Translations under genes and position numbers: made by a program
Origin: an uncultured Gammaproteobacteria bacterium
GTDB lineage: Bacteria > Patescibacteriota > Patescibacteriia > UBA2591 > UBA6264
DNA: 64,000 bases
Direction: 5' to 3'
NCBI GenBank assembly: GCA_964596735.1
Contig: CAZQVF010000005.1
Coordinates: 13,328 to 77,327, forward strand
Part shown: one piece after another, positions 149 through 22,112 of the stretch
Layout: every line of letters begins with the position of its first letter
How positions within the stretch are numbered: the first letter of the stretch is position 1
Notes under the pieces: model-generated
Told to the model about the DNA's origin: nothing
Database searches by the model: none
Seen by the model: only the letters and a program-made list of their open reading frames with translations

Positions 149-1549
149 ATGAAACGAATTCAAAGCGAAGAAACAATTAATAAAATTAAAAAAGAAGTTA
201 AGCTTTGTGGTTGGGTAAACAGCCGTCGCAACATGGGTAAAATTGTTTTTATTGATTTAAGAGACCGTTCTGGCTTAGTCCAGATTGTTTTTATTCCCCA
301 AGAACTTGATCAAGAATCGCAAAAAGCAGTTAAAGAAACTCGACCTGAATTTGTTGTTGAGGTTAAAGGGGTTGTCCGTCTAAGACCGAAAAATCAAATT
401 AACAAAGATTTAATAAGCGGAAAAATAGAAATCTTAGCTAAAAAATTATCTATTTTAAATCAAGCTAAGACTACGCCATTTGAAATTGACAATGAAACCC
501 TTAAAGCCAACGAAGAACTTCGTCTAAAATACCGTTATTTAGACTTGCGGCATGAACGCATGAAAAATAATCTAATTCTTCGTCATCAAGTTATCAAATT
601 TATCCGTGATTATTTAGATAAAGAAAAATTTTTAGAAATTGAAACACCAATTCTAACTAAAGGCACACCAGAAGGTGCTAGAGAATTTATTATTCCTTCT
701 CGACTTTATCCTGGAAAATTCTATGTTCTCCCTCAAGCCCCTCAACAATTTAAACAACTTTTAATGGTTGCTGGTGTTGAAAAATATTTCCAAATTGCTC
801 GTTGTTTTCGTGATGAAGACACGCGGGGTGATCGTCAACCAGAATTTACTCAATTAGACATTGAAATGAGTTTTGTTGATCAGCATGAGATAATGGATTT
901 AATTGAAAAATTAACTATTGCCCTGATTAAAAAGATAGCTCCAAAAAAGAGAATTTTAACTAAACCCTTTCCCAGGATTACTTATGAACAGGCAATAAAA
1001 AAATATAAAACTGATAAGCCTGATCTAAGAAAGAATAAAAAAGATCCTAATGAACTAGCCTTTTGCTTTATCACAGACTTTCCTCTTTTTCAGTATTCAA
1101 AAACAGAAAAGAAAAATATCTCTGTACACCACCCTTTTACTGCCCCTCAAAAAAAAGATATCCCTATTTTAAGCAAAAAACCCCTAAAAGTATTAGCCCA
1201 GCAATATGATTTTGTTTGTAATGGTTTTGAGTTAGGAGGAGGTTCAATTAGAATTCACCAAAGAGAAATCCAGGAAGAAATTTTTAAAATTCTAAAAATT
1301 AATGAACAAGAAACAGAAAGGCGCTTTGGACACCTCCTTAAAGCTTTTGAATATGGAGCCCCTCCTCATGGCGGCATTGCTCTTGGCTTAGACAGAATAA
1401 TTATGATCCTTGCCAATGAGCCTAATATTCGCGAAGTTATCCCTTTTGCTAAAACAGCTGACGCCAAAGACTTAATGATGGGAGCACCAAGTGAAATTCC
1501 AGAAGAACAATTAAAACAAGCTCATATTGAAATCAAAAAGAAAAAATGA
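149..1549 (+). CDS. aspS: Aspartyl-tRNA synthetase, class IIb, short (archaeal/eukaryal-like, possibly non-discriminating)
   Basis: N-terminal OB anticodon-binding fold, class II motifs FRDED...GAPPHGGIALGLDRIIMIL and FELGGGSIRIH. The ORF track starts at TTG 134; I prefer ATG 149 (MKRIQSEE...) because the codons before it belong to the conserved promoter cassette. Confidence 0.85.
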   Translation: MKRIQSEETINKIKKEVKLCGWVNSRRNMGKIVFIDLRDRSGLVQIVFIPQELDQESQKAVKETRPEFVVEVKGVVRLRPKNQINKDLISGKIEILAKKLSILNQAKTTPFEIDNETLKANEELRLKYRYLDLRHERMKNNLILRHQVIKFIRDYLDKEKFLEIETPILTKGTPEGAREFIIPSRLYPGKFYVLPQAPQQFKQLLMVAGVEKYFQIARCFRDEDTRGDRQPEFTQLDIEMSFVDQHEIMDLIEKLTIALIKKIAPKKRILTKPFPRITYEQAIKKYKTDKPDLRKNKKDPNELAFCFITDFPLFQYSKTEKKNISVHHPFTAPQKKDIPILSKKPLKVLAQQYDFVCNGFELGGGSIRIHQREIQEEIFKILKINEQETERRFGHLLKAFEYGAPPHGGIALGLDRIIMILANEPNIREVIPFAKTADAKDLMMGAPSEIPEEQLKQAHIEIKKKK

Positions 1550-2442
1550 GATTCTTTAGATTAGCTTTACAAAACTTTTTTAGAAATTTTTGGCTTTCTC
1601 TAACCAGTATTATTATCATACTCTTAATGCTGTTTTCCCTAAGCCTAGTTTATAGTTTTAACACCCTGGGCCAGCAAATATTAAGCTCTTTTAAAAATAA
1701 AATGGATTTGGGTGTGTATTTAAACCAAAACATTGATTTAAATCAATTAAGCCTTTTAAGGTCTGAGTTGGAGAATATGGATGAAATAAAAGAGGTATAT
1801 TATCTTACCCCTGAAGAATCTTTAGAAAATTTTAAAGAAAAACATGTAAATGATCCTTTAATTTTGAAATCATTAAAAGAACTGAATGAAAATCCCTTAG
1901 GAGGAGCTTTAACTTTAAAATTTTATGATCCTTCGGGTTATGAAAAAGTTATTTCAGTTATTAATCGTCCTGTTTATAGCGCTTTAATCCGAGATCAAAA
2001 TTTTTATGATTATCAAGAATTAATTCATGTTTTTAATCAATTTAATCAAAAAATTACAGGAGCAGGCTTAAGTATCAGTGGAATTTTTGCTTTAATTACT
2101 ATTTTGGTAATTTTCACCACTATTAAACTAGGGGCTCTTTCTCGTCGTCGAGAAATTAAAATTATGAGACTAGTTGGAGCTTCGGCCTGGTCTATTCGTA
2201 CTCCATTTTTAATTGAAGGTGGTCTATATGCATTTATTGCCTGGATCATAAACTCCGCTCTCATTATTCCTTTGGTCTATTTTTCTCAACCATATTTACA
2301 AAAATTTATTGAACTAGATTTTAATTTATTTATTTACCTGAAAACTGGCGCTTTTCATTTTTGGTTTGGCCTTTTACTCTTTGCTTTAATTGTTTCTCTA
2401 ATCGGTAGCAGTCTGGCAATTAAAAAATATTTAAAATTTTAA
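1546..2442 (+). CDS. ftsX: FtsX-like cell-division permease (N-terminal TM, extracellular domain, 3 C-terminal TM helices)
   Basis: About 300 aa, topology and C-terminal FtsX-like helices (RLVGASAWSIRTPFLIEG). No ftsE is adjacent. Confidence 0.55.
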   Translation: MRFFRLALQNFFRNFWLSLTSIIIILLMLFSLSLVYSFNTLGQQILSSFKNKMDLGVYLNQNIDLNQLSLLRSELENMDEIKEVYYLTPEESLENFKEKHVNDPLILKSLKELNENPLGGALTLKFYDPSGYEKVISVINRPVYSALIRDQNFYDYQELIHVFNQFNQKITGAGLSISGIFALITILVIFTTIKLGALSRRREIKIMRLVGASAWSIRTPFLIEGGLYAFIAWIINSALIIPLVYFSQPYLQKFIELDFNLFIYLKTGAFHFWFGLLLFALIVSLIGSSLAIKKYLKF

Positions 2443-2457
2443 TACTCTTTCTTTTTC

Positions 2458-3468
2458 ATGAAGTTAAAAGAGTTTAATTATTCTCTTCCTCAAGAATTGA
2501 TTGCCCAGAAACCTATTCGACCTCGAGATCATTCAAGATTAATGGTTTTAAATAGAAAGAATCATACTATTATTCATGATTCTTTTTATAATCTAGATAA
2601 ATACTTAAAACCAAATGATGTTTTGGTTGCTAATAATTCAAAGGTTATACCCGCTCGCTTGTTTGGGCAGAAAACAACTGGGGGAAAAACAGAAATTCTC
2701 CTTTTAAGACCCCTAAAGAATAATCTATGGGAAATCGTTCTCAGGGGAAAGGGCCAACAAAATAAAGAAATTAAATTCAGCAAAAAGCTCTTTGGTATTT
2801 TAAAGCAACAAATCTCAGACCAGACATGGGAAATAGAGTTTAATTTAACCAATAATGCCCTACTCAAACAAATATATAAATTAGGTCACACTCCAACTCC
2901 CCCGTATATTAAACGTGCTTCCAGCTTACAAGAATATCAGACAACATATGCTCAGACTCCTGGTTCAGCGGCAGCGCCAACGGCTGGATTTCACTTTACA
3001 AAAAAATTAATTAAAAAATTAAAAAAACAAGGAAATGAATTTGAATTTATTACCCTCCATGTTGGTTTAGGAACTTTTCAGCCAGTAAGAACAGAAAACA
3101 TTGAAGAACATCAAATACATGCCGAGTGGGGAGAAATAACAAAGCAAACCGCAGAAAAATTAAATCAAGCAAAAGAAAACAAACAAAGAATTATTGCTAT
3201 TGGGACAACAACAACAAGAATTTTAGAGGCATTTACTCTTGAAAAAAAAGTAATTTCAGGAGAAAAATGGATCAATACCTTTATTTATCCTGGCTATGAG
3301 TTTAAATTCATCAACGGCTTAATTACTAATTTTCACCTCCCTCAATCAAGTCTTTTAATGTTGGTTTGTGCTTTTGCTGAAAAAAACTTTATTTTTCAAG
3401 CTTATGAGCAAGCCATAAAAGAAAAATACAGATTTTATTCTTTTGGTGATGCAATGTTAATTATCTAA
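2458..3468 (+). CDS. queA: S-adenosylmethionine:tRNA ribosyltransferase-isomerase
   Basis: N-terminus MKLKEFNYSLPQELIAQKPIRPRDHSRLMVL is the QueA signature; length 336 aa. Confidence 0.85.
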   Translation: MKLKEFNYSLPQELIAQKPIRPRDHSRLMVLNRKNHTIIHDSFYNLDKYLKPNDVLVANNSKVIPARLFGQKTTGGKTEILLLRPLKNNLWEIVLRGKGQQNKEIKFSKKLFGILKQQISDQTWEIEFNLTNNALLKQIYKLGHTPTPPYIKRASSLQEYQTTYAQTPGSAAAPTAGFHFTKKLIKKLKKQGNEFEFITLHVGLGTFQPVRTENIEEHQIHAEWGEITKQTAEKLNQAKENKQRIIAIGTTTTRILEAFTLEKKVISGEKWINTFIYPGYEFKFINGLITNFHLPQSSLLMLVCAFAEKNFIFQAYEQAIKEKYRFYSFGDAMLII

Positions 3469-3510
3469 AACTTGATTTTTTTAAAAATTCTCCTATAATA
3501 AACTTAATTT

Positions 3511-3582
3511 GGCCAGGTAGCCAAGTAGTAAGGCAGGTGTCTGCAAAACACCTATACACGGGTGCAATTCCCGTCCTGGCCT
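3511..3582 (+). tRNA. tRNA-Cys (anticodon GCA)
   Basis: Manual cloverleaf: acceptor GGCCAGG/CCTGGCC, anticodon stem GGTGT/ACACC, loop CTGCAAA with U33 and A37, T-stem ACGGG/CCCGT. T-loop is TGCAATT (G at position 55). No encoded CCA. Confidence 0.8.
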
Positions 3583-16997: not shown

Positions 16998-17231
16998 TTA
17001 TTTAATATTTAATTTTTCCTTAAACTTTGGGACATCAAATCCCATAATCATTTCCCCGTCGATTTCTGTTACGGGTACGGCCATCTGCCCTGTTTTTTTA
17101 ATAAAATCATCAACCAGATCCTGATGTTGACTAAGATCAACCTCTTCAAACTCGATTTTATTCTCATTTAAAAAATCTTTGACATGGTGGCAATAAAGAC
17201 ATGATGGTGATGTATAAACAATTATTTTCAT
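16998..17231 (-). CDS. Glutaredoxin/NrdH-like thiol-disulfide oxidoreductase
   Basis: 77 aa, CLYC active site in a thioredoxin-fold context (KIIVYTSPSCLYC...VPVTEIDG). Confidence 0.6.
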   Translation of the reverse strand: MKIIVYTSPSCLYCHHVKDFLNENKIEFEEVDLSQHQDLVDDFIKKTGQMAVPVTEIDGEMIMGFDVPKFKEKLNIK

Positions 17232-17266
17232 ATATTCTTAGTTAATTGGTTATTTACTGTTAGTAT

Positions 17267-17422
17267 AAGAACCTGCTTCGCAGAACCTTGAAATTAAATT
17301 CTATTATATATAAATTAAGGTAATTTAATTATAAGAACCTGCTTCGCAGAACCTACCTGCCGGCAGGCAGGCCTTGAAATTAAATTCTATTGTATAAATA
17401 ATAATGTATTTTAATTATAAAG
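17267..17422 (+). repeat. Two tandem orphan copies of the promoter cassette (17267-17332 and 17333-17422); the second carries a 12-bp GC palindrome insertion CCTGCCGGCAGG
   Basis: Copy 1 reproduces the aspS upstream region through ...TAAGGTAATTTAATTATAAG, including the equivalent of aspS codons 1-4. Copy 2 carries the GC-rich palindrome at 17356-17367. No + strand ORF follows; both point into the 3' end of the minus-strand RT gene. Confidence 0.55.
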
Positions 17423-17464
17423 ATTAGAAAAAGCTCGTCAAGTTATCTTATTTTGTAATAATAT

Positions 17465-18511
17465 TTATTCTACTAAACCTACTTTCTTTCTAAATTTATA
17501 CGTATTTCCGTGAATCAATAGTCCTTGATAAGAAATAACTGTCTGTCGTTTTGGATAATTCTTTAATCTTCTAATTATCTTTCGCTTTGTGGTTGTTCGA
17601 ATCTGTCGATAGCATGGAAAATGTATCCAGCCCAAAAAATCTAAACCCGAAGCATAAGTTCTAATACAAACCTTGTGTTGATGAAGTGTCAATTTAAGTT
17701 CTTTTTGTAAAAATTCAGTGATTCTTAACAATAAACCATTGAGATACTCTTTATTGTCCGATAAAATAACGAAATCGTCGCCATATCTAATATAATATTT
17801 CACTCGCAATTCCTGTTTTATATACATATCAAATTCGTGCATATAAACATTAACGAAAAGTTGGGAAGTGAGGTTGCCAAGGGGCAGACCTATCCCCAAA
17901 CGGCTGGAATAAAAACTAAAAACTACCCTTTCAATCAACCGAATAATTTGAGAATCGTTAATGTGTCTCTTTAATATTTTAATAAGGATTTGCTGATCAA
18001 TGTTAGCAAAAAATTTCTGAATATCGCATTTTAGAATATAACAAGTTTGAGAATTATTTTTTGATACCTTCTGGGCAAAATATCTGAATCTGTTCAAAGC
18101 GCGATGCACTCCCTTGTTTTCTCTACACGAATATACATCATAAATAAACTTTCTATCAAAATAAGGACACAGCTCCTTATAAATGAGATGATGTAATAAC
18201 CGATCACGCACCGTAGCTTTGTGAATATTTCTCGGCTTGGGGTCAGAAATATTAAAAGCCGAATATGGTCCGTGAATATAAGTAAAATTAACCAGAGACT
18301 TATAAAGATCTATTAAATTATCGGCCAGCTTTATTTGAAAAATCATCACATCTTTTTTATGTCTTTTACCACACAAAAAACGCTCCCAAGTCGCTAAGAG
18401 ATTTTCTATCTTAATAATATCAATATATTTAACTTTAAACATATGACTACAATATCTGCGCGAGTACCATTGGTGCTTGTTAGAACAAAAAGGGCTTATC
18501 AAATTTGGCAC
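17465..18511 (-). CDS. Diversity-generating retroelement (DGR) reverse transcriptase
   Basis: RT motifs including LPLGNLTSQLFVNVYM ([ILV]GxxxSQ, DGR-specific) and YIRYGDDFVIL (YxDD). N-terminal ENLL...GKR.K...PY.AF.I.DPKPR.I..A...DRLLHHLI pattern typical of DGR RTs. The real start may be Met24 (18442). TR lies ~330 bp upstream. Confidence 0.85.
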   Translation of the reverse strand: MPNLISPFCSNKHQWYSRRYCSHMFKVKYIDIIKIENLLATWERFLCGKRHKKDVMIFQIKLADNLIDLYKSLVNFTYIHGPYSAFNISDPKPRNIHKATVRDRLLHHLIYKELCPYFDRKFIYDVYSCRENKGVHRALNRFRYFAQKVSKNNSQTCYILKCDIQKFFANIDQQILIKILKRHINDSQIIRLIERVVFSFYSSRLGIGLPLGNLTSQLFVNVYMHEFDMYIKQELRVKYYIRYGDDFVILSDNKEYLNGLLLRITEFLQKELKLTLHQHKVCIRTYASGLDFLGWIHFPCYRQIRTTTKRKIIRRLKNYPKRQTVISYQGLLIHGNTYKFRKKVGLVE

Positions 18512-18820
18512 AAAAATTTAGTCAATCTTAATCGACTTGATCGCTATACTATTGGTGCTAAAATCGATGAATATTTTCTATCTTTATTGGAATTAATTTT
18601 TAAGGCCTGTTTTGCTTACGATAAATTTGAAAAACTCTCAATGGTATCACAAGCGATTGGTAAAAACGATTTATTAAAATTCTTTTTACAGATTGGTTGG
18701 GAACAAAAAACCATTAACCATAAAAATTATGGTCTTCTAATACTTTTACTTGATGAAGTTGGTCGAATGCTGGGTGGCTGGAAAAAAAATATACAAGAAA
18801 AAACTCCCGCTAGTAAGTAG
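18443..18820 (+). CDS. Avd-like accessory variability determinant (four-helix-bundle, 23S rRNA IVS protein family), on the opposite strand
   Basis: 125 aa, predicted all-helical. C-terminal LDEVGRMLGGW resembles the conserved Avd/four-helix-bundle motif, and AYQIWHK resembles the N-terminal helix. It sits between TR and RT, on the opposite strand. Confidence 0.5.
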   Translation: MTTISARVPLVLVRTKRAYQIWHKNLVNLNRLDRYTIGAKIDEYFLSLLELIFKACFAYDKFEKLSMVSQAIGKNDLLKFFLQIGWEQKTINHKNYGLLILLLDEVGRMLGGWKKNIQEKTPASK

Positions 18821-18840
18821 CAGGAGAAAAAATTAAATAA

Positions 18841-18960
18841 GTCACAGAAGCAGAGCAGGCAGTCGTTATCATCCCAAGCGTTCTCAAAGTTGCCGAGGTT
18901 GAAATTAAAGTCATCATCCGAGTTGCGGTTGACATTCGGCACGCGGTAGTTGCCGTCAGA
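18841..18960 (-). repeat. DGR template repeat (TR), 120 bp, Asn(AAY)-codon rich
   Basis: 120-nt alignment to 19299-19418 with 16 mismatches. All 15 internal mismatches are A in the TR coding (minus) strand; one T/C mismatch lies at the extreme 3' (IMH-like GC-rich) end. Read in the VR frame it gives SDGNYRVPNVNRNSDDDFNFNLGNFENAWDDNDCLLCFCD. Confidence 0.85.
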
Positions 18961-19189
18961 CAATGTACAGCCCGCCACCTTTTTCACTAAGGGTAACGCC
19001 AGTCGCCCTCTGTATTTTATTCTGAGCCAAAATGCTCAATAGCACGCTGCACCGACTGATTTAATTTTTTCATAAAAGGTTGCACTCATTTACTAAGCAT
19101 GCCCAGTAAATTCCTGGCAAACTCCCTTTACGAGAATTCGATGATATAAAGCCATGGCCACATATCCAATCTATTATCCAAAAATATTA

Positions 19190-19238
19190 TACAGAAAAAA
19201 TACATAAAAGAAAAGGGTCCTTACATTGGTAAGAACCC
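19190..19238 (-). terminator. Rho-independent terminator downstream of the DGR target gene
   Basis: Minus strand: GGGTTCTTACC-AATG-TAAGGACCC hairpin (one mismatch) followed by TTTTCTTTTATGTATTTTTT. Confidence 0.5.
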
Positions 19239-19289
19239 AAAGGGTCAAAAAATCCAAAGAACAGGACTAAGAAACCAAGTGCCTAAGCA

Positions 19290-19997
19290 CTAATCGCAGT
19301 CGCAGAAGCAGAGCAGGCAGTCGCTATCATCCCAAGCGTCCTCAAAGGGGCCGAGGAAGAAAATAAAGTCACCAACCGAGTAGCGGTCGACAGACGGCAC
19401 GCGGTAGCTGCCGTCAGAATCGATCCAGAGAGCCTCTTTCTCATCAAACGAGACAGACCAACGGCTCTTTGGCAACTTGTTTTTGGCAAGTTCATAGACC
19501 AGTGAAGCGCCTTGAGCGCCGGCTAAAACAGCTTTCTGAGAATACAGGAAATTTAAACAGTCTTCCGAAGTCACAGTTTCTGTGATATTAAAAACCTTTA
19601 CCTTGAACTTTCTGCCAGGCACGAGCTTTGTTGTCGCTTTGTTAAAGTGCTTATCAGTGATGTCGGAATTGTAGTAATTAAATTCCGAGCCATGCGCTGC
19701 TGCAAAGTCAGTCAAGCGCGTAGCATGGTCGTAACCCTTAGGCACAACAATGTTAAACGCATTGGCCAATTTGAAGCGCGGGTCAGGCATAAACGGTGAA
19801 AGAGCTTGCTGACGTTGTTTCTGTGTCAGATTTAAAAAACATTCATATTCTGGCAAACTCATTTGCCCTTTCTTGATCTTCTGATTGCAATCCATATGCA
19901 GACCAGCCAATTTGGCCGCTTCTGCGCCGATAGATGTCTTATCCATCATTTTCTCCTTTGATACCAAGAGTTTAATAATTGACCCCATGCCAATCAT
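19290..19997 (-). CDS. DGR variable (target) protein, 235 aa, with the variable repeat encoding its last ~40 residues
   Basis: C-terminus ...SDGSYRVPSVDRYSVGDFIFFLGPFEDAWDDSDCLLCFCDCD is the diversified counterpart of the TR-encoded peptide. No signal peptide is evident. Confidence 0.75.
   Translation of the reverse strand: MIGMGSIIKLLVSKEKMMDKTSIGAEAAKLAGLHMDCNQKIKKGQMSLPEYECFLNLTQKQRQQALSPFMPDPRFKLANAFNIVVPKGYDHATRLTDFAAAHGSEFNYYNSDITDKHFNKATTKLVPGRKFKVKVFNITETVTSEDCLNFLYSQKAVLAGAQGASLVYELAKNKLPKSRWSVSFDEKEALWIDSDGSYRVPSVDRYSVGDFIFFLGPFEDAWDDSDCLLCFCDCD
19299..19418 (-). repeat. DGR variable repeat (VR) at the 3' end of the target gene
   Basis: See TR. A GC-rich invariant 3' segment (CGACTGCCTGCTCTGCTTCTG) forms an IMH-like end. 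A small hairpin GTGC-TTAG-GCAC abuts the stop codon. Confidence 0.85.
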
Positions 19998-20092
19998 TTT
20001 CTCAGTATTGATAATATTATGTCATATTTTAGCCTTTTTGTCAACACTCCTATTCCAAAAGACTTAAAATTTATATTAATCTAAAATAAAAA

Positions 20093-20200
20093 CACCGCCG
20101 AGGAGAATCGAACTCCTGAGACGGATTTGCCTTTAGCGGAAAACCTGGCGTCCTACAATGCTTAATAAATTAAAATGGCCCCGAGGAGAATTGAGTGAAA
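20093..20200 (-). other. Two tRNA 3'-end-like fragments (T-arm plus acceptor 3' strand), possible integration scars
   Basis: Minus strand: GGAGTTCGATTCTCCTCGGCGGTG (20093-20116) and CAATTCTCCTCGGGGCCA (~20177-20194). No complementary 5' acceptor strand or D/anticodon arms could be built. Confidence 0.3.
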
Positions 20201-20201
20201 A

Positions 20202-20891
20202 TTATTTTAATCCACTTTGTAATTTTAACGCGTCAATCCATCCTTTAATTCGAAAAGCTATCTTACGACCATGTACACGTAAATCAAGTGTGCCATATGG
20301 CAAAGAATTGATTGGACGTTTTCTGTTGCTCGCTTTGCTTATTTGTTTAAAAATGCGAAAACGACTTTTAGGAATATTAGTTACTCTAGCCCAAAAATTA
20401 ATGGCAGATTGCTCGCTAATATTAGCATGTATTCTAACACATACTTTTAATTTCTCTTCAGGGACTTTAATAATTTCTCGTAAAAAGCGAAGAAACAACG
20501 CAATCATATAAGGATCAGCATTAACAAAATCAACTACATACCCTTTGTTTTTTTGAGCCTCAATTTTATATCCCTCTGCCCAATAAAGAGCATTTGCAAC
20601 TAATAATAACTCATATTTTGACAACGAATGAATTTCATTAAAAGTCTCCTTCTTTATTCTCTGATTTTCAATCCAAATAGCACGTGTCCGTTGCCGATTG
20701 TTTTCAAATAACCCATGTTCTCGAGCAATTCTCGTTTTTTTTTCTAAAAGCTTTTTTGCTGACTTTGTTAGTTTTAAGTCTCTAAACCAAACGCTAAGCG
20801 AGCCCTTGGAAACACTTAAAGTACGAGCTATTTCATTGTAACTTTTACCCTTTAACCGCAACCTGAGCGCTTTTTGATATTGTGGATGCAT
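20202..20891 (-). CDS. HTH-domain protein of unknown function (transposase-type HTH; possible homing-endonuclease-like C-terminal region)
   Basis: KGKSYNEIARTLSVSKGSLSVWFRD is a transposase/sigma-region-4-like HTH; NALYWAEGYK is vaguely LAGLIDADG-like. The ORF track starts at 20954 inside tRNA-Glu; I prefer Met22 (20891). Confidence 0.35.
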   Translation of the reverse strand: MHPQYQKALRLRLKGKSYNEIARTLSVSKGSLSVWFRDLKLTKSAKKLLEKKTRIAREHGLFENNRQRTRAIWIENQRIKKETFNEIHSLSKYELLLVANALYWAEGYKIEAQKNKGYVVDFVNADPYMIALFLRFLREIIKVPEEKLKVCVRIHANISEQSAINFWARVTNIPKSRFRIFKQISKASNRKRPINSLPYGTLDLRVHGRKIAFRIKGWIDALKLQSGLK

Positions 20892-20909
20892 AATAATTAA
20901 ATATATAAG

Positions 20910-20982
20910 TAGCGCCAAGGGGAATCGAACCCCTGTTACATGGTTGAAAACCATGTGTCCTGACCACTAGACGATGGCGCCA
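20910..20982 (-). tRNA. tRNA-Glu (anticodon TTC)
   Basis: Minus strand GGCGCCATCGTCTAGTGGTCAGGACACATGGTTTTCAACCATGTAACAGGGGTTCGATTCCCCTTGGCGCTA. D-arm TCGTCTAG...GGAC as in bacterial tRNA-Glu, anticodon loop TTTTCAA, canonical TTCGATT T-loop, G1-U72 wobble. Confidence 0.8.
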
Positions 20983-21053
20983 TTATTATTTAGCGCAATC
21001 TTAGCAAAATTAAACGAATTTGTCAAAGAATTAATTTATGTTAAAATAATCTT

Positions 21054-22112
21054 ATGCTTATCTTAGGTATTGAAACATCTTGTGATGAAACAGCGGCGGC
21101 TGTTTTAGAATATAAGCCCTTAAAAAAAGAAGGTCAGTTTAAAGTTATTTCCAATGTTATTTTTTCACAAATCTCAATTCATCGTCAATACGGAGGTATT
21201 ATTCCTGAGGTAGCCGCCAGGGCTCATATTGAAAATATTTTACCAGTGATTAAAAAATCTCTTAAAAATATAGATTATAGAAAAATCGATTTAATTGCTG
21301 TTACTCAAGGGCCGGGGCTAATCACATCGTTATTAGTTGGTTTAGAAACTGCTAAATCTTTATCCTATTCTTGGAAAAAACCATTAATGGGAATTAATCA
21401 TTTACAAGGTCATTTGGCGGCTAATTTTATTGAACATGAAACAAAGAATGTTTTTCCGGCAATTAGCTTAATTGTCTCTGGTGGACATACTGAACTTGGC
21501 TTAATGAGAAAGTCTGGTCATTATAAAAAAATTGGACAAACTAGGGATGATGCCGCTGGAGAATGTTTTGATAAAATCGCTAAATTATTAAAAATCGGCT
21601 ATCCTGGAGGTCCAGTTATCTCTAAAATGGCTGAAAAAATAAACAACAAATCAAATAATATCTGCTTTCCTCGCCCCATGATCAAAACAAATGATTTTGA
21701 TTTTAGTTTCTCGGGACTAAAAACAGCTGTACTTTATTTTGTTAAAAAGAATAGAAATAAACTAGAAAAGAAAAAATTTATTCAGAACATTTGTGCTGAA
21801 TCTCAACAAGCAATTATTGACGTTTTAATTCATAAAACAATTAAAGCAAGTAAAAAATATAAAGCCAAAGCTATTTTTCTAAGTGGTGGAGTGGCCGCCA
21901 ACCAAGAACTAAGAGAACAATTGAAGCTCCATGTTTGTAGATTGCCAAATAGTGTAAAATTCTTTGTTCCATCAAGAAATCTTTGCACTGATAATGCGGT
22001 AATGATTGCTGCAGCCGCCGCCCTCAAATTCAAAAACTTAATACCAATTCAAAGGAAGAAATTAAAAAATAATTGGCAAAAAATAAAAGTAGATCCTAAC
22101 TTAGAAACATGA
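21054..22112 (+). CDS. tsaD: tRNA N6-adenosine threonylcarbamoyltransferase (Kae1/TsaD)
   Basis: MLILGIETSCDETAAAV...GGVAAN motifs. Confidence 0.9.
   Translation: MLILGIETSCDETAAAVLEYKPLKKEGQFKVISNVIFSQISIHRQYGGIIPEVAARAHIENILPVIKKSLKNIDYRKIDLIAVTQGPGLITSLLVGLETAKSLSYSWKKPLMGINHLQGHLAANFIEHETKNVFPAISLIVSGGHTELGLMRKSGHYKKIGQTRDDAAGECFDKIAKLLKIGYPGGPVISKMAEKINNKSNNICFPRPMIKTNDFDFSFSGLKTAVLYFVKKNRNKLEKKKFIQNICAESQQAIIDVLIHKTIKASKKYKAKAIFLSGGVAANQELREQLKLHVCRLPNSVKFFVPSRNLCTDNAVMIAAAAALKFKNLIPIQRKKLKNNWQKIKVDPNLET

What the first reader, a model, noticed from the sequence alone, without database searches (positions are those of the whole stretch)
17240..21000. DGR sits in a small accessory island bounded by promoter-repeat copies and tRNA-Glu, with tRNA 3'-fragment scars
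The segment lies between the glutaredoxin-like gene and tsaD. It contains two orphan promoter cassettes, the DGR, two unrelated tRNA 3'-end-like fragments (GGAGTTCGATTCTCCTCGGCGGTG and CAATTCTCCTCGGGGCCA, sharing an 11-mer), an HTH-domain protein and tRNA-Glu. tRNA-3' fragments next to an intact tRNA are the classic footprint of site-specific integration, but I find no integrase. This suggests a decayed integrative element that brought the DGR.
Basis: inference. Interest (0 to 1): 0.55.

Follow-up and report, generated by a model that had tools for sequence, protein, structure and literature searches.

The report
Composite insertion hotspot at tRNA-Glu
The stretch between the glutaredoxin gene and tsaD is a strain-specific patchwork of at least three separate insertions beside a tRNA-Glu gene: mobile promoter repeats, a self-contained DGR cassette, and a foreign tRNA-Glu plus DNA-binding gene that replaced the resident tRNA. 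It is not the wreck of one integrated element that delivered the DGR.

Summary
The segment is accessory: two close relatives (90-93% nt identity) carry the empty site, grx, about 90 bp, tRNA-Glu, tsaD. The single decayed integrative element reading does not hold.

Fragment 1 belongs to a pseudogene of the resident tRNA-Glu (20093-20155). It matches the relatives' tRNA at 43 of 43 retained positions. This native remnant separates the DGR from the HTH gene, so they arrived separately.

The 2.6-kb DGR cassette runs from the RT stop codon to the target promoter. It has no flanking repeats, no integrase and no tRNA link. The same cassette sits at unrelated, tRNA-free loci in other Patescibacteria. 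It looks active: two of three differences between strain variants lie in the VR at template-adenine positions.

An 842-bp block (20156-20997) carries a divergent full-length tRNA-Glu, the HTH gene and fragment 2. It replaced the 5' part of the resident tRNA. This HTH family starts 0-17 nt after a tRNA-Glu(UUC) in 9 of 9 loci inspected, and 18 of 22 over-called homologues carry a translated tRNA as an N-terminal extension. Two other lineages also show tRNA-Glu 3' scars after the gene. Its C-terminal domain matches no known family or fold.

The promoter cassettes are MITE-like repeats inserted independently.

The parts
16998..17231 (-). Glutaredoxin-like gene. Left backbone flank, syntenic in all relatives.
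   Evidence: Pfam Glutaredoxin 2.5e-16. Aligned to L003, L014, L015 and L016 at 87-93%.
17255..17420 (+). Two overlapping tandem copies of a genome-wide promoter cassette (small hairpin, AGAACC, TTGAAATTAAAT, then a -10 element). They are inserted in the grx 5'UTR at a TATAA. No gene lies downstream on this strand.
   Evidence: Repeat families D3, D8 and D20. 7 copies against 0.54 expected. Other copies sit 33-85 nt before the start codons of housekeeping genes, including rbfA and the L34 gene. Absent at this site in L014/L015, one copy in L003.
17414..17441 (-). Native grx promoter (TTGACG, 16-nt spacer, TATAAT). It is now separated from grx by the inserted cassettes.
   Evidence: 11/12 consensus match. 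Conserved in L014, L015 and L003.
17465..18442 (-). DGR reverse transcriptase. Its stop codon marks the left end of the DGR cassette.
   Evidence: Pfam RVT_1 2.3e-21. Homologues at 65-85% identity are abundant in Patescibacteria. Nucleotide homology to other DGR loci begins at 17457-17466.
18443..18820 (+). bAvd accessory gene, divergent from RT. The two start codons abut back to back (cat|atg).
   Evidence: Pfam bAvd 2.7e-12. Same arrangement in L026-L030 and L004.
18840..18960 (-). Template repeat (TR).
   Evidence: 121-nt repeat, 88% identical to the VR. 14 of 15 mismatches at TR adenines.
19290..19997 (-). DGR target gene (235-aa ORF, no Pfam match). The VR at 19298-19418 forms its C-terminus. 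A terminator-like hairpin lies at 19215-19238 and a promoter at 20016-20044.
   Evidence: GC is 0.42-0.46 here against about 0.30-0.35 in the flanks. Strain variants L006 and L007 differ at VR positions 19325 and 19330, both TR-adenine positions.
20093..20155 (-). Positions 1-19 are lost. A 10-nt stretch of the anticodon arm is replaced by 20 nt. The encoded CCA and terminator hairpin are lost.
   Evidence: 17/17 and 26/26 identical to the tRNA-Glu of L014. 94.6% identical to the L003 tRNA 3' end plus flank. Not called as a tRNA by ARAGORN or Rfam.
20176..20193 (-). It lies 8 nt after the HTH stop codon.
   Evidence: Analogous fragments lie right after the HTH stop in L011 and in L033/L034.
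20202..20891 (-). HTH gene (229 aa): N-terminal transposase/sigma-like helix-turn-helix, long helices, and a C-terminal alpha/beta domain with no known relative. Member of a Patescibacteria family that always follows tRNA-Glu.
   Evidence: Pfam finds only HTH domains. At least 210 homologues. 390 cluster representatives at E<=1e-30. AF2 model pLDDT 90. No PDB or BFVD fold match. Context.
20909..20981 (-). Intact tRNA-Glu(UUC), here called type A. It is not the orthologue of the relatives' tRNA-Glu. It was imported together with the HTH gene and a 16-nt leader (20982-20997).
   Evidence: ARAGORN and Rfam, 68.6 bits. 13-14 differences in 72 nt from the clade's type, 10 of them in 5 compensated pairs.
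20998..21047 (.). Native divergent promoter region: tRNA-Glu promoter 21026-20998(-) and tsaD promoter 21020-21047(+). Homology with the relatives resumes here.
   Evidence: Alignments to L003, L014 and L016.
21054..22112 (+). tsaD, the right backbone flank.
   Evidence: Pfam TsaD 7e-92. 88-91% aa identity to the relatives.

Best explanation
Window 17240-21000 is a recombination and insertion hotspot around a tRNA-Glu gene. It was filled by at least three independent events on a backbone that reads grx, about 90 bp of spacer, tRNA-Glu, tsaD.

1. A short promoter-bearing repeat that behaves like a MITE was inserted, and here duplicated, in the grx 5'UTR.
2. A self-contained 2.6-kb chromosomal DGR cassette of the Patescibacteria type was inserted into the spacer between the grx promoter and the 3' trailer of the resident tRNA-Glu. 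It consists of the target promoter, the target gene with its VR, the TR, an inverted avd and the RT. It brought no integrase and left no att-type repeats. The way it entered is inferred to be illegitimate or short-homology recombination after DNA uptake.
3. An 842-bp foreign block replaced the leader and the first 19 nt of the resident tRNA-Glu. The block carries a 16-nt leader, a complete divergent tRNA-Glu, the HTH gene and an older tRNA-Glu 3' scar. The rest of the resident tRNA was left to decay.

The imported tRNA, driven by the native promoter, is now the only intact tRNA-Glu at this locus. The HTH ORF has no room for a promoter or Shine-Dalgarno sequence of its own. It is inferred to be expressed by read-through from the tRNA and by tRNA 3' processing. 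That would explain why the tRNA and the ORF travel as one unit.

Shown: the empty site, the boundaries, the pseudogene, the foreignness of the HTH/tRNA block, and the independence and recent activity of the DGR.
Inferred: the recombination mechanisms and the mode of expression.
For: Empty and alternative sites:
- L014 and L015 have grx, about 90 bp, tRNA-Glu, tsaD.
- L003 has a different 570-bp insert.
- L016/L017 have a 537-aa ORF between the tRNA-Glu and tsaD.

The native remnant:
- The pseudo-tRNA at 20093-20155 is identical to the L014 tRNA at all 43 retained positions.
- It shares loss of the CCA and hairpin with the L003 tRNA.

The DGR cassette:
- Nucleotide homology to other Patescibacteria DGR loci spans exactly 17457-20031.
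- Those loci lie beside adk/map or holB genes with no tRNA.
- No flanking direct repeats.
- The left flank is homologous to the L014 spacer up to 17481 (0 of 2000 shuffles).

The HTH block is foreign:
- The best non-self HTH homologue is 67% identical, although relatives at about 90% are in the databases.
- The window's TsaD is 44-50% identical to that of HTH-bearing genomes, which are 51-62% identical to one another. Its HTH is 54-64% identical to theirs, and theirs are 50-70% identical to one another.
- tRNA type A differs from the clade's type at 13-14 of 72 positions, whereas L014 and L003 differ at 3.
- L003 shares the cassette insertion and the CCA loss with the window, yet keeps its native leader and an intact resident tRNA without the HTH gene.

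tRNA-HTH coupling:
- 9 of 9 loci inspected.
- 18 of 22 over-called homologues carry a translated tRNA-Glu as an N-terminal extension.

DGR activity: 2 of 3 strain differences in 2.2 kb lie at VR positions templated by TR adenines.
Against: - No intermediate genome was found that carries the HTH block without the DGR, or the reverse. All strain variants recovered carry both, so the order and independence of events 2 and 3 rest on the native remnant between them.
- The donor of the HTH block is unsampled. tRNA type A resembles the HTH-linked tRNAs of L008 and L022 only in the acceptor stem and discriminator. Overall it is further from them (22 differences) than from the resident type.
- The right-flank homology of the DGR insertion is weak (23 nt, p about 0.03).
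- A possible 17-bp duplication of ATATTTCTTAATCTAAA at the DGR junctions cannot be excluded or supported statistically.
- One related DGR locus, L004, does have a 48-bp flanking target duplication. Some DGR cassettes therefore do insert by a duplicating, integration-like route.
Confidence: 0.72

Rival explanations
1. One integrative element entered the 3' end of tRNA-Glu carrying the DGR and the HTH gene. It later lost its integrase, leaving the tRNA 3' fragments as att scars.
For: - The segment is absent from the empty site of close relatives.
- The tRNA fragments are real and in direct orientation with the intact tRNA.
- The DGR target region has a higher GC content than the flanks.
- A related DGR, in L004, is flanked by a 48-bp duplication of its target gene's 3' end, as integrated elements are.
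Against: - A native remnant, the pseudo-tRNA, lies inside the supposed element.
- No tRNA fragment lies at the grx-proximal end, and no repeats flank the DGR.
- The intact tRNA is foreign along its whole length rather than resident 5' part plus element-borne 3' end.
- The DGR cassette occurs alone at tRNA-free loci.
- The HTH gene occurs next to tRNA-Glu without any DGR in every other lineage inspected.
- No integrase, nor any remnant of one, was found among the ORFs.
Confidence: 0.06
2. The whole arrangement (DGR, HTH gene, two tRNA-Glu genes) is ancestral to the clade. The relatives lost parts of it by deletion, for instance by recombination between the two tRNA-Glu copies.
For: - tsaD, tRNA-Glu, HTH is the common arrangement in more distant Patescibacteria.
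- Recombination between two direct tRNA copies would delete the HTH gene cleanly.
- The hotspot shows other rearrangements.
Against: - It needs independent, scar-free losses in L014/L015, L016/L017 and L003, and L003 shares derived characters with the window.
- The window's HTH is 8-18 points more similar to distant homologues than its TsaD is.
- No HTH orthologue at 70-99% identity was found, apart from the window's own population.
- The relatives' tRNA leader is native and unlike the window's 16-nt leader.
- The pseudo-tRNA has no substitutions in its 43 retained positions, which argues for a recent disruption.
Confidence: 0.08
3. The HTH protein is itself the mobility factor. It would be a site-specific DNA-binding recombinase or nuclease with a new catalytic fold that targets tRNA-Glu genes. 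The tRNA-Glu plus HTH unit would then be a minimal selfish module that displaces the resident tRNA-Glu and becomes indispensable by supplying the replacement.
For: - tRNA-Glu 3' fragments that begin in the T-loop lie within 8-30 nt of the HTH stop codon in three separate lineages: the window, L011 and L033/L034.
- In the window the module arrived by horizontal transfer and landed exactly at the tRNA-Glu locus, killing the resident copy.
- The N-terminal HTH resembles those of transposases and resolvases (HTH_23, HTH_28, HTH_38, HTH_SB, HTH_7).
- The C-terminal domain has an invariant acidic and polar set (E106, N124, S185, R192) and no known fold.
Against: - No catalytic domain was recognised by Pfam, NCBIfam, PHROGs, PADLOC, PDB sequence profiles or Foldseek.
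- Among HTH-bearing genomes, HTH identity tracks TsaD identity, which looks mostly vertical.
- Five of the eight other HTH lineages inspected show no scar.
- No homologues in phage or plasmid collections.
- The window event is not a T-loop crossover, because the resident tRNA keeps positions 20-73 and the incoming tRNA is complete.
Confidence: 0.14

Closest known systems
tRNA-gene-associated genomic islands and integrative elements (tyrosine-integrase elements that target the 3' end of tRNA or tmRNA genes)
   Same: - Strain-variable DNA lies immediately 3' of a tRNA gene.
- tRNA 3' fragments lie in direct orientation with the intact gene.
- A clean empty site exists in close relatives.
   Different: - No integrase, and no att pair enclosing the island.
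- The content is a mosaic of at least three insertions.
- The resident tRNA was truncated at its 5' side and replaced by a complete foreign tRNA, rather than being restored by an element-borne 3' end.
Cellular DGRs of the Candidate Phyla Radiation (DGR clade 2 of Roux et al., bioRxiv 10.1101/2020.04.01.020958)
   Same: - RT, bAvd, and a TR/VR pair with adenine-specific differences.
- A small target protein diversified at its C-terminus.
- Chromosomal and not viral, restricted to Patescibacteria.
   Different: Nothing essential differs, so it is a member. Local details: avd is inverted and abuts the RT start codon, and the cassette is a discrete 2.6-kb unit found at different loci.
Free-standing homing endonuclease genes that spread by intronless homing with co-conversion of flanking markers (phage T4 seg and mob genes). 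This comparison rests on my own knowledge.
   Same: - A single small ORF with an N-terminal DNA-binding domain sits tightly next to a conserved gene.
- Its arrival is accompanied by replacement of the neighbouring conserved gene with the donor's variant.
   Different: - No nuclease domain was detected.
- The LAGLIDADG-like motif LYWAEG is not backed by Pfam or by the predicted fold.
- Inheritance is mostly vertical among carriers.
Promoter-bearing MITE-like repeats such as the Neisseria Correia elements. This comparison rests on my own knowledge.
   Same: The promoter cassette is short and multi-copy, carries -35 and -10 elements, shows presence/absence polymorphism between relatives, and has a TA-rich target duplication (TTATA or TATAA).
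   Different: - It serves as the main promoter of housekeeping genes.
- No terminal inverted repeats were demonstrated.
- No cognate transposase was identified.

Membership tests
Diversity-generating retroelement | Reverse transcriptase gene | tested here: met
   RVT_1 2.3e-21. 65-85% identity to many Patescibacteria DGR RTs.
Diversity-generating retroelement | TR/VR repeat pair whose differences fall at template adenines, with the VR at the 3' end of a target ORF | tested here: met
   121-nt repeat. 14 of 15 mismatches at TR adenines. VR 19298-19418 lies inside ORF 19290-19997.
Diversity-generating retroelement | Accessory variability determinant (Avd) | tested here: met
   Pfam bAvd 2.7e-12.
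Diversity-generating retroelement | Ongoing mutagenic retrohoming | tested here: inconclusive
   Two of three differences between strain variants lie in the VR at TR-adenine positions. This is suggestive, but only two sites were seen.
tRNA-targeting integrative element / genomic island | Integrase or recombinase gene in the element | tested here: not met
   The ORFs of 17240-21000 are RT, Avd, the target gene and the HTH gene only.
tRNA-targeting integrative element / genomic island | Direct att repeats (tRNA 3' end) at both outer ends of the element | tested here: not met
   Both fragments lie in the middle of the segment, at 20093-20193. There is none at the grx end, and no repeats flank the DGR.
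tRNA-targeting integrative element / genomic island | Absent from an otherwise syntenic empty site in relatives | tested here: met
   L014 and L015.
tRNA-targeting integrative element / genomic island | The intact tRNA is the resident 5' part joined to an element-borne 3' part | tested here: not met
   The intact tRNA differs from the resident type along its whole length, including positions 2, 7, 20 and 26-29. The resident 3' part survives separately.
LAGLIDADG homing endonuclease (considered for the HTH protein) | Match to LAGLIDADG sequence families | tested here: not met
   No LAGLIDADG hit in Pfam on the C-terminal domain of 4 members, even at E<=10, nor among the listed hits for 47 whole proteins.
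LAGLIDADG homing endonuclease (considered for the HTH protein) | The alpha-beta-beta-alpha-beta-beta-alpha fold | tested here: not met
MITE-like mobile repeat (promoter cassette) | Insertion polymorphism with target-site duplication between close relatives | tested here: met
   - Filled in L016 and empty in the window at about 11679, with a TTATA duplication.
- The grx 5'UTR is filled in the window and L003 and empty in L014/L015, at a TATAA.
- Two copies lie between the HD gene and grx in L016/L017 only.
MITE-like mobile repeat (promoter cassette) | Terminal inverted repeats and a cognate transposase | not tested
   Not examined.

The most novel reading that the evidence does not exclude
The tRNA-Glu plus HTH unit is a new kind of minimal selfish module. 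It would be a promoterless ORF without a Shine-Dalgarno sequence, fused to the 3' end of a tRNA-Glu gene. It would spread between Patescibacteria lineages by displacing the resident tRNA-Glu, possibly through a site-specific activity of its own protein, whose C-terminal domain has no known fold. It would then be retained because it carries the only working tRNA-Glu.
Probability: 0.15. Interest if true: 0.75.

Novelty: new variant of a known kind. Interest (0 to 1): 0.45.

Why it matters
- It shows at base-pair resolution how a streamlined Patescibacteria genome gains accessory functions without recognisable mobile-element machinery. A complete, apparently active DGR arrived as a bare 2.6-kb cassette. 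An essential tRNA gene was swapped for a foreign copy that brought a passenger gene.
- tRNA 3' fragments next to a DGR should not be read as evidence that an integrative element delivered it.
- The work exposes an uncharacterised, widespread protein family (390 cluster representatives at E<=1e-30) whose gene is fixed to the 3' end of tRNA-Glu. That is a concrete, testable lead on tRNA-coupled gene expression or tRNA-gene-targeted mobility in the Candidate Phyla Radiation.

Tried and rejected
- LAGLIDADG idea for the HTH protein. It was suggested by the motif ALYWAEGYK and rejected on Pfam, NCBIfam, PDB profile and Foldseek results.
- Other library searches for the HTH protein. PHROGs matched mainly its HTH region. 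PADLOC found nothing. It has no phage or plasmid homologues.
- Rfam at E<=10 finds no tRNA or other RNA family in 20000-20200.
- A target-site duplication around the DGR cassette was sought and is not significant.
- The hypothesis that the intact tRNA resembles the HTH-linked tRNAs of other lineages holds only for the acceptor stem and discriminator. It does not hold overall.
- Longer family members (400-580 aa) were scanned for informative extra domains. Only additional HTH domains were found.
- Strain variants were searched for an intermediate state, with the HTH gene but no DGR or the reverse. None was found.
- A Campbell-type single crossover between the incoming and resident tRNA-Glu was considered and rejected. 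Neither copy is the hybrid that this predicts.
- Literature searches found no description of a tRNA-Glu-linked HTH gene or of tRNA-associated DGR islands in Patescibacteria.

Full report
**What is in the sequence.** The window comes from a low-GC Patescibacteria (CPR) genome. Related contigs are all Patescibacteria MAGs.

Between the glutaredoxin-like gene (16998-17231, minus) and tsaD (21054-22112, plus) lie, in order:
- two overlapping tandem + strand copies of a promoter cassette (17255-17420);
- a complete DGR: RT 17465-18442 (minus), bAvd 18443-18820 (plus), TR 18840-18960, VR 19298-19418, all tied to a 235-aa target ORF (19290-19997, minus);
- two tRNA-like fragments on the minus strand (20093-20116 and 20176-20193);
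- a 229-aa HTH gene (20202-20891, minus);
- tRNA-Glu(UUC) (20909-20981, minus).

The TR and VR differ at 15 positions, and 14 of them are TR adenines. The segment contains no integrase. Independent assemblies from other samples reproduce the arrangement at 99.9-100% identity, so it is not a misassembly.

Scans with TsaD returned several close relatives.
- L014 and L015 (90-93% nt identity) carry the empty site: grx, about 90 bp, tRNA-Glu, tsaD. They have no promoter cassette, no DGR and no HTH gene.
- L003 (87-96% identity) has one promoter cassette and then an unrelated 570-bp insert. That insert holds a terminator hairpin, a 99-aa ORF and a tRNA-Glu 3' fragment interrupted by a GC-rich hairpin pair. 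Its tRNA-Glu and tsaD follow.
- L016 and L017 (84-88% identity) have grx directly beside the tRNA-Glu, and a 537-aa ORF between the tRNA and tsaD.

The region is therefore accessory and a hotspot. Each lineage has filled it differently.

**The tRNA fragments are real and both derive from tRNA-Glu.**
- The relatives share one tRNA-Glu type, here called B: GCCGCCG...CGGCGGT with discriminator G or A. L014 and L003 differ at only 3 positions.
- On the window's minus strand, 20093-20155 reads TAGGACGCCAGGTTTTC, then 20 nt, then CAGGAGTTCGATTCTCCTCGGCGGTG. The first block matches the L014 tRNA at 17 of 17 positions and the last at 26 of 26. The middle 10 nt of the tRNA are replaced by 20 nt, and positions 1-19 are missing.
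- Fragment 1 is thus the 3' end of a pseudogene of the resident, orthologous tRNA-Glu. ARAGORN and Rfam no longer recognise it.
- The pseudogene and the L003 tRNA both lack the encoded CCA and terminator hairpin seen in L014, L015 and L016. The window and L003 also share the cassette insertion in the grx 5'UTR. On these two characters they are sisters.
- Fragment 2 (CAATT CTCCT CGGGGCC A) is the T-loop-to-discriminator end of a third tRNA-Glu type. Its T-loop resembles that of L031 and its acceptor strand that of L011.

**The intact tRNA-Glu and the HTH gene form a foreign block.**
- The intact tRNA, here called type A, differs from type B at 13-14 of 72 positions. Ten of these differences sit in five compensated base pairs.
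- Homology with the relatives resumes only after the -10 element of the native tRNA promoter, at about 20998.
- An 842-bp block (20156-20997) has therefore replaced the native leader and the first 19 nt of the resident tRNA. The block holds a 16-nt leader, tRNA type A, the HTH gene, fragment 2 and 20 nt of spacer.
- The HTH protein has at least 210 homologues, all about 225 aa and all from Patescibacteria. The best one outside the window's own population is only 67% identical, although relatives at about 90% identity are in the databases.
- The window's TsaD is 44-50% identical to TsaD of HTH-bearing genomes, which are 51-62% identical to one another. The window's HTH is 54-64% identical to theirs, within their own 50-70% range. 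That is an excess of 8-18 points, as expected for horizontal acquisition.
- L003, the sister on the shared characters, keeps its native leader and an intact type-B tRNA and has no HTH gene. The gain therefore happened in the window's lineage.

**The HTH family is fixed to tRNA-Glu.**
- In all nine lineages inspected, the HTH ORF starts 0-17 nt after a tRNA-Glu(UUC) on the same strand. tsaD usually lies divergent on the other side, and the downstream genes vary: recG, leuS or others.
- In 18 of 22 homologues whose gene calls were over-extended, the extra N-terminal residues are a translated tRNA-Glu (for example VRTxGFQxxNxGSIP). It ends 0-2 residues before the true methionine in most, and further upstream in two.
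- This leaves no room for a promoter or a Shine-Dalgarno sequence. I infer expression by read-through from the tRNA and by tRNA 3' processing. That would make tRNA plus ORF the smallest transferable unit.
- tRNA-Glu 3' fragments that begin in the T-loop follow the HTH stop codon in L011 (one) and in L033/L034 (two), as well as in the window. No fragment was found after the HTH stop in the other five lineages.
- The protein has an N-terminal HTH of the transposase, sigma-r4 or resolvase kind. It then has long helices and a C-terminal alpha/beta domain with invariant E106, N124, S185 and R192.
- The C-terminal domain matches nothing in Pfam, NCBIfam, PHROGs, PADLOC, PDB sequence profiles, or Foldseek against PDB and BFVD. 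A LAGLIDADG reading of the motif LYWAEG was tested and not met.
- A profile search finds 390 cluster representatives at E<=1e-30.

**The DGR is a separate, self-contained cassette.**
- Nucleotide homology to other Patescibacteria DGR loci spans window 17457-20031. That runs from the RT stop codon to the -35 element of the target promoter.
- Those loci have the same architecture: target gene, TR, inverted avd abutting the RT start, RT. They lie beside unrelated housekeeping genes with no tRNA: adk/map in L026-L028, a glycosyltransferase and holB in L030.
- In the window the cassette sits in the 90-bp spacer between the native grx promoter (17414-17441, minus) and the trailer of the resident tRNA.
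- The left flank aligns to the L014 spacer up to 17481 (0 of 2000 shuffles reach the score). The right flank aligns for only 23 nt (p about 0.03).
- No significant direct repeats flank the cassette here or in L026, L029 and L030.
- Because the native pseudo-tRNA lies between the DGR and the HTH block, the two were not delivered by one element.
- The DGR appears active. L006 and L007 differ from the window at three positions in 2.2 kb, and two of them are VR positions templated by TR adenines.
- It fits the cellular, CPR-restricted DGR clade described by Roux et al..

**The promoter cassettes.**
- The repeat (small hairpin, AGAACC, TTGAAATTAAAT, then a -10 element) has 7 copies in the window against 0.54 expected.
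- Other copies precede the start codons of rbfA, the L34 gene, a tRNA-synthetase-like gene and membrane-protein genes by 33-85 nt. It is therefore a real promoter module.
- It is polymorphic between relatives, with TTATA or TATAA duplications. It is filled in L016 but empty in the window at about 11679. It is filled in the grx 5'UTR of the window (two copies) and L003 (one copy) but empty in L014 and L015. It is filled between the HD gene and grx only in L016 and L017.
- It is a mobile repeat that entered independently. It does not bound the island.

**Verdict.** The idea that one decayed integrative element brought the DGR is not supported.

The best explanation is a composite hotspot built by three independent insertions (confidence about 0.7).

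The most novel reading still open, at about 0.15, is that the tRNA-Glu plus HTH unit is a minimal selfish module that replaces resident tRNA-Glu genes, possibly through an activity of its own protein. Against this reading:
- no catalytic domain was found;
- among carriers, HTH divergence tracks TsaD divergence;
- the event in the window was not a T-loop crossover.

Noticed in passing
L004 477-524 and 3634-3681 (DGR at 605-3560): In a relative with 70% TsaD identity, a DGR of the same architecture is inserted directly after the tsaD stop codon. It is flanked by a 48-bp direct repeat (47/48 identical) of the last 48 nt of tsaD. The second copy is followed by what looks like the native terminator. 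It is the only one of five DGR loci examined that has flanking repeats. This suggests that some bare DGR cassettes enter by a route that duplicates the target.
   Followed up: partly
window 11679; L016 263-338; window 17255-17420; L016 5793-5947: The genome-wide promoter cassette shows presence/absence polymorphism between close relatives, with TTATA or TATAA duplication. It therefore behaves like a promoter-carrying MITE.
   Followed up: partly
window 18440-18445: The avd and RT start codons abut back to back (cat|atg) with no intergenic base, so each gene's promoter must lie inside the other's coding sequence or further away. The arrangement is conserved in L026-L029; in L030 a 36-nt gap separates the two called genes. 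The two orphan + strand promoter cassettes at 17255-17420 point antisense through RT towards avd.
   Followed up: no
window 20892-20908; L011 4000; L022 1758; L025 443; L016 6303/6304: The HTH ORFs start 1-17 nt after the tRNA-Glu 3' end. In L016 a 537-aa ORF stops exactly at the tRNA-Glu 5' end. This suggests that mRNAs are punctuated by tRNA processing, or that translation is leaderless.
   Followed up: no
L003 9754-9830: A duplicated tRNA-Glu 3' fragment is interrupted in its T-loop by a 39-bp GC-rich pair of hairpins. It lies next to a 99-aa ORF with no family match, at the position the DGR occupies in the window.
   Followed up: no
window 19325 and 19330 compared with L006 and L007: Populations from different samples differ at two VR positions templated by TR adenines, and at only one other position in 2.2 kb. 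This is consistent with recent DGR activity.
   Followed up: yes
window 18800-20000: GC content is 0.42-0.46 in the TR, spacer and target gene, against 0.28-0.35 for RT, avd and the surrounding genome.
   Followed up: no
proteins P0258, P0272, P0275, P0309, P0348: Some members of the HTH family are 400-580 aa long, with 2-4 stretches matching the family profile and extra HTH domains. They may be tandem fusions.
   Followed up: partly
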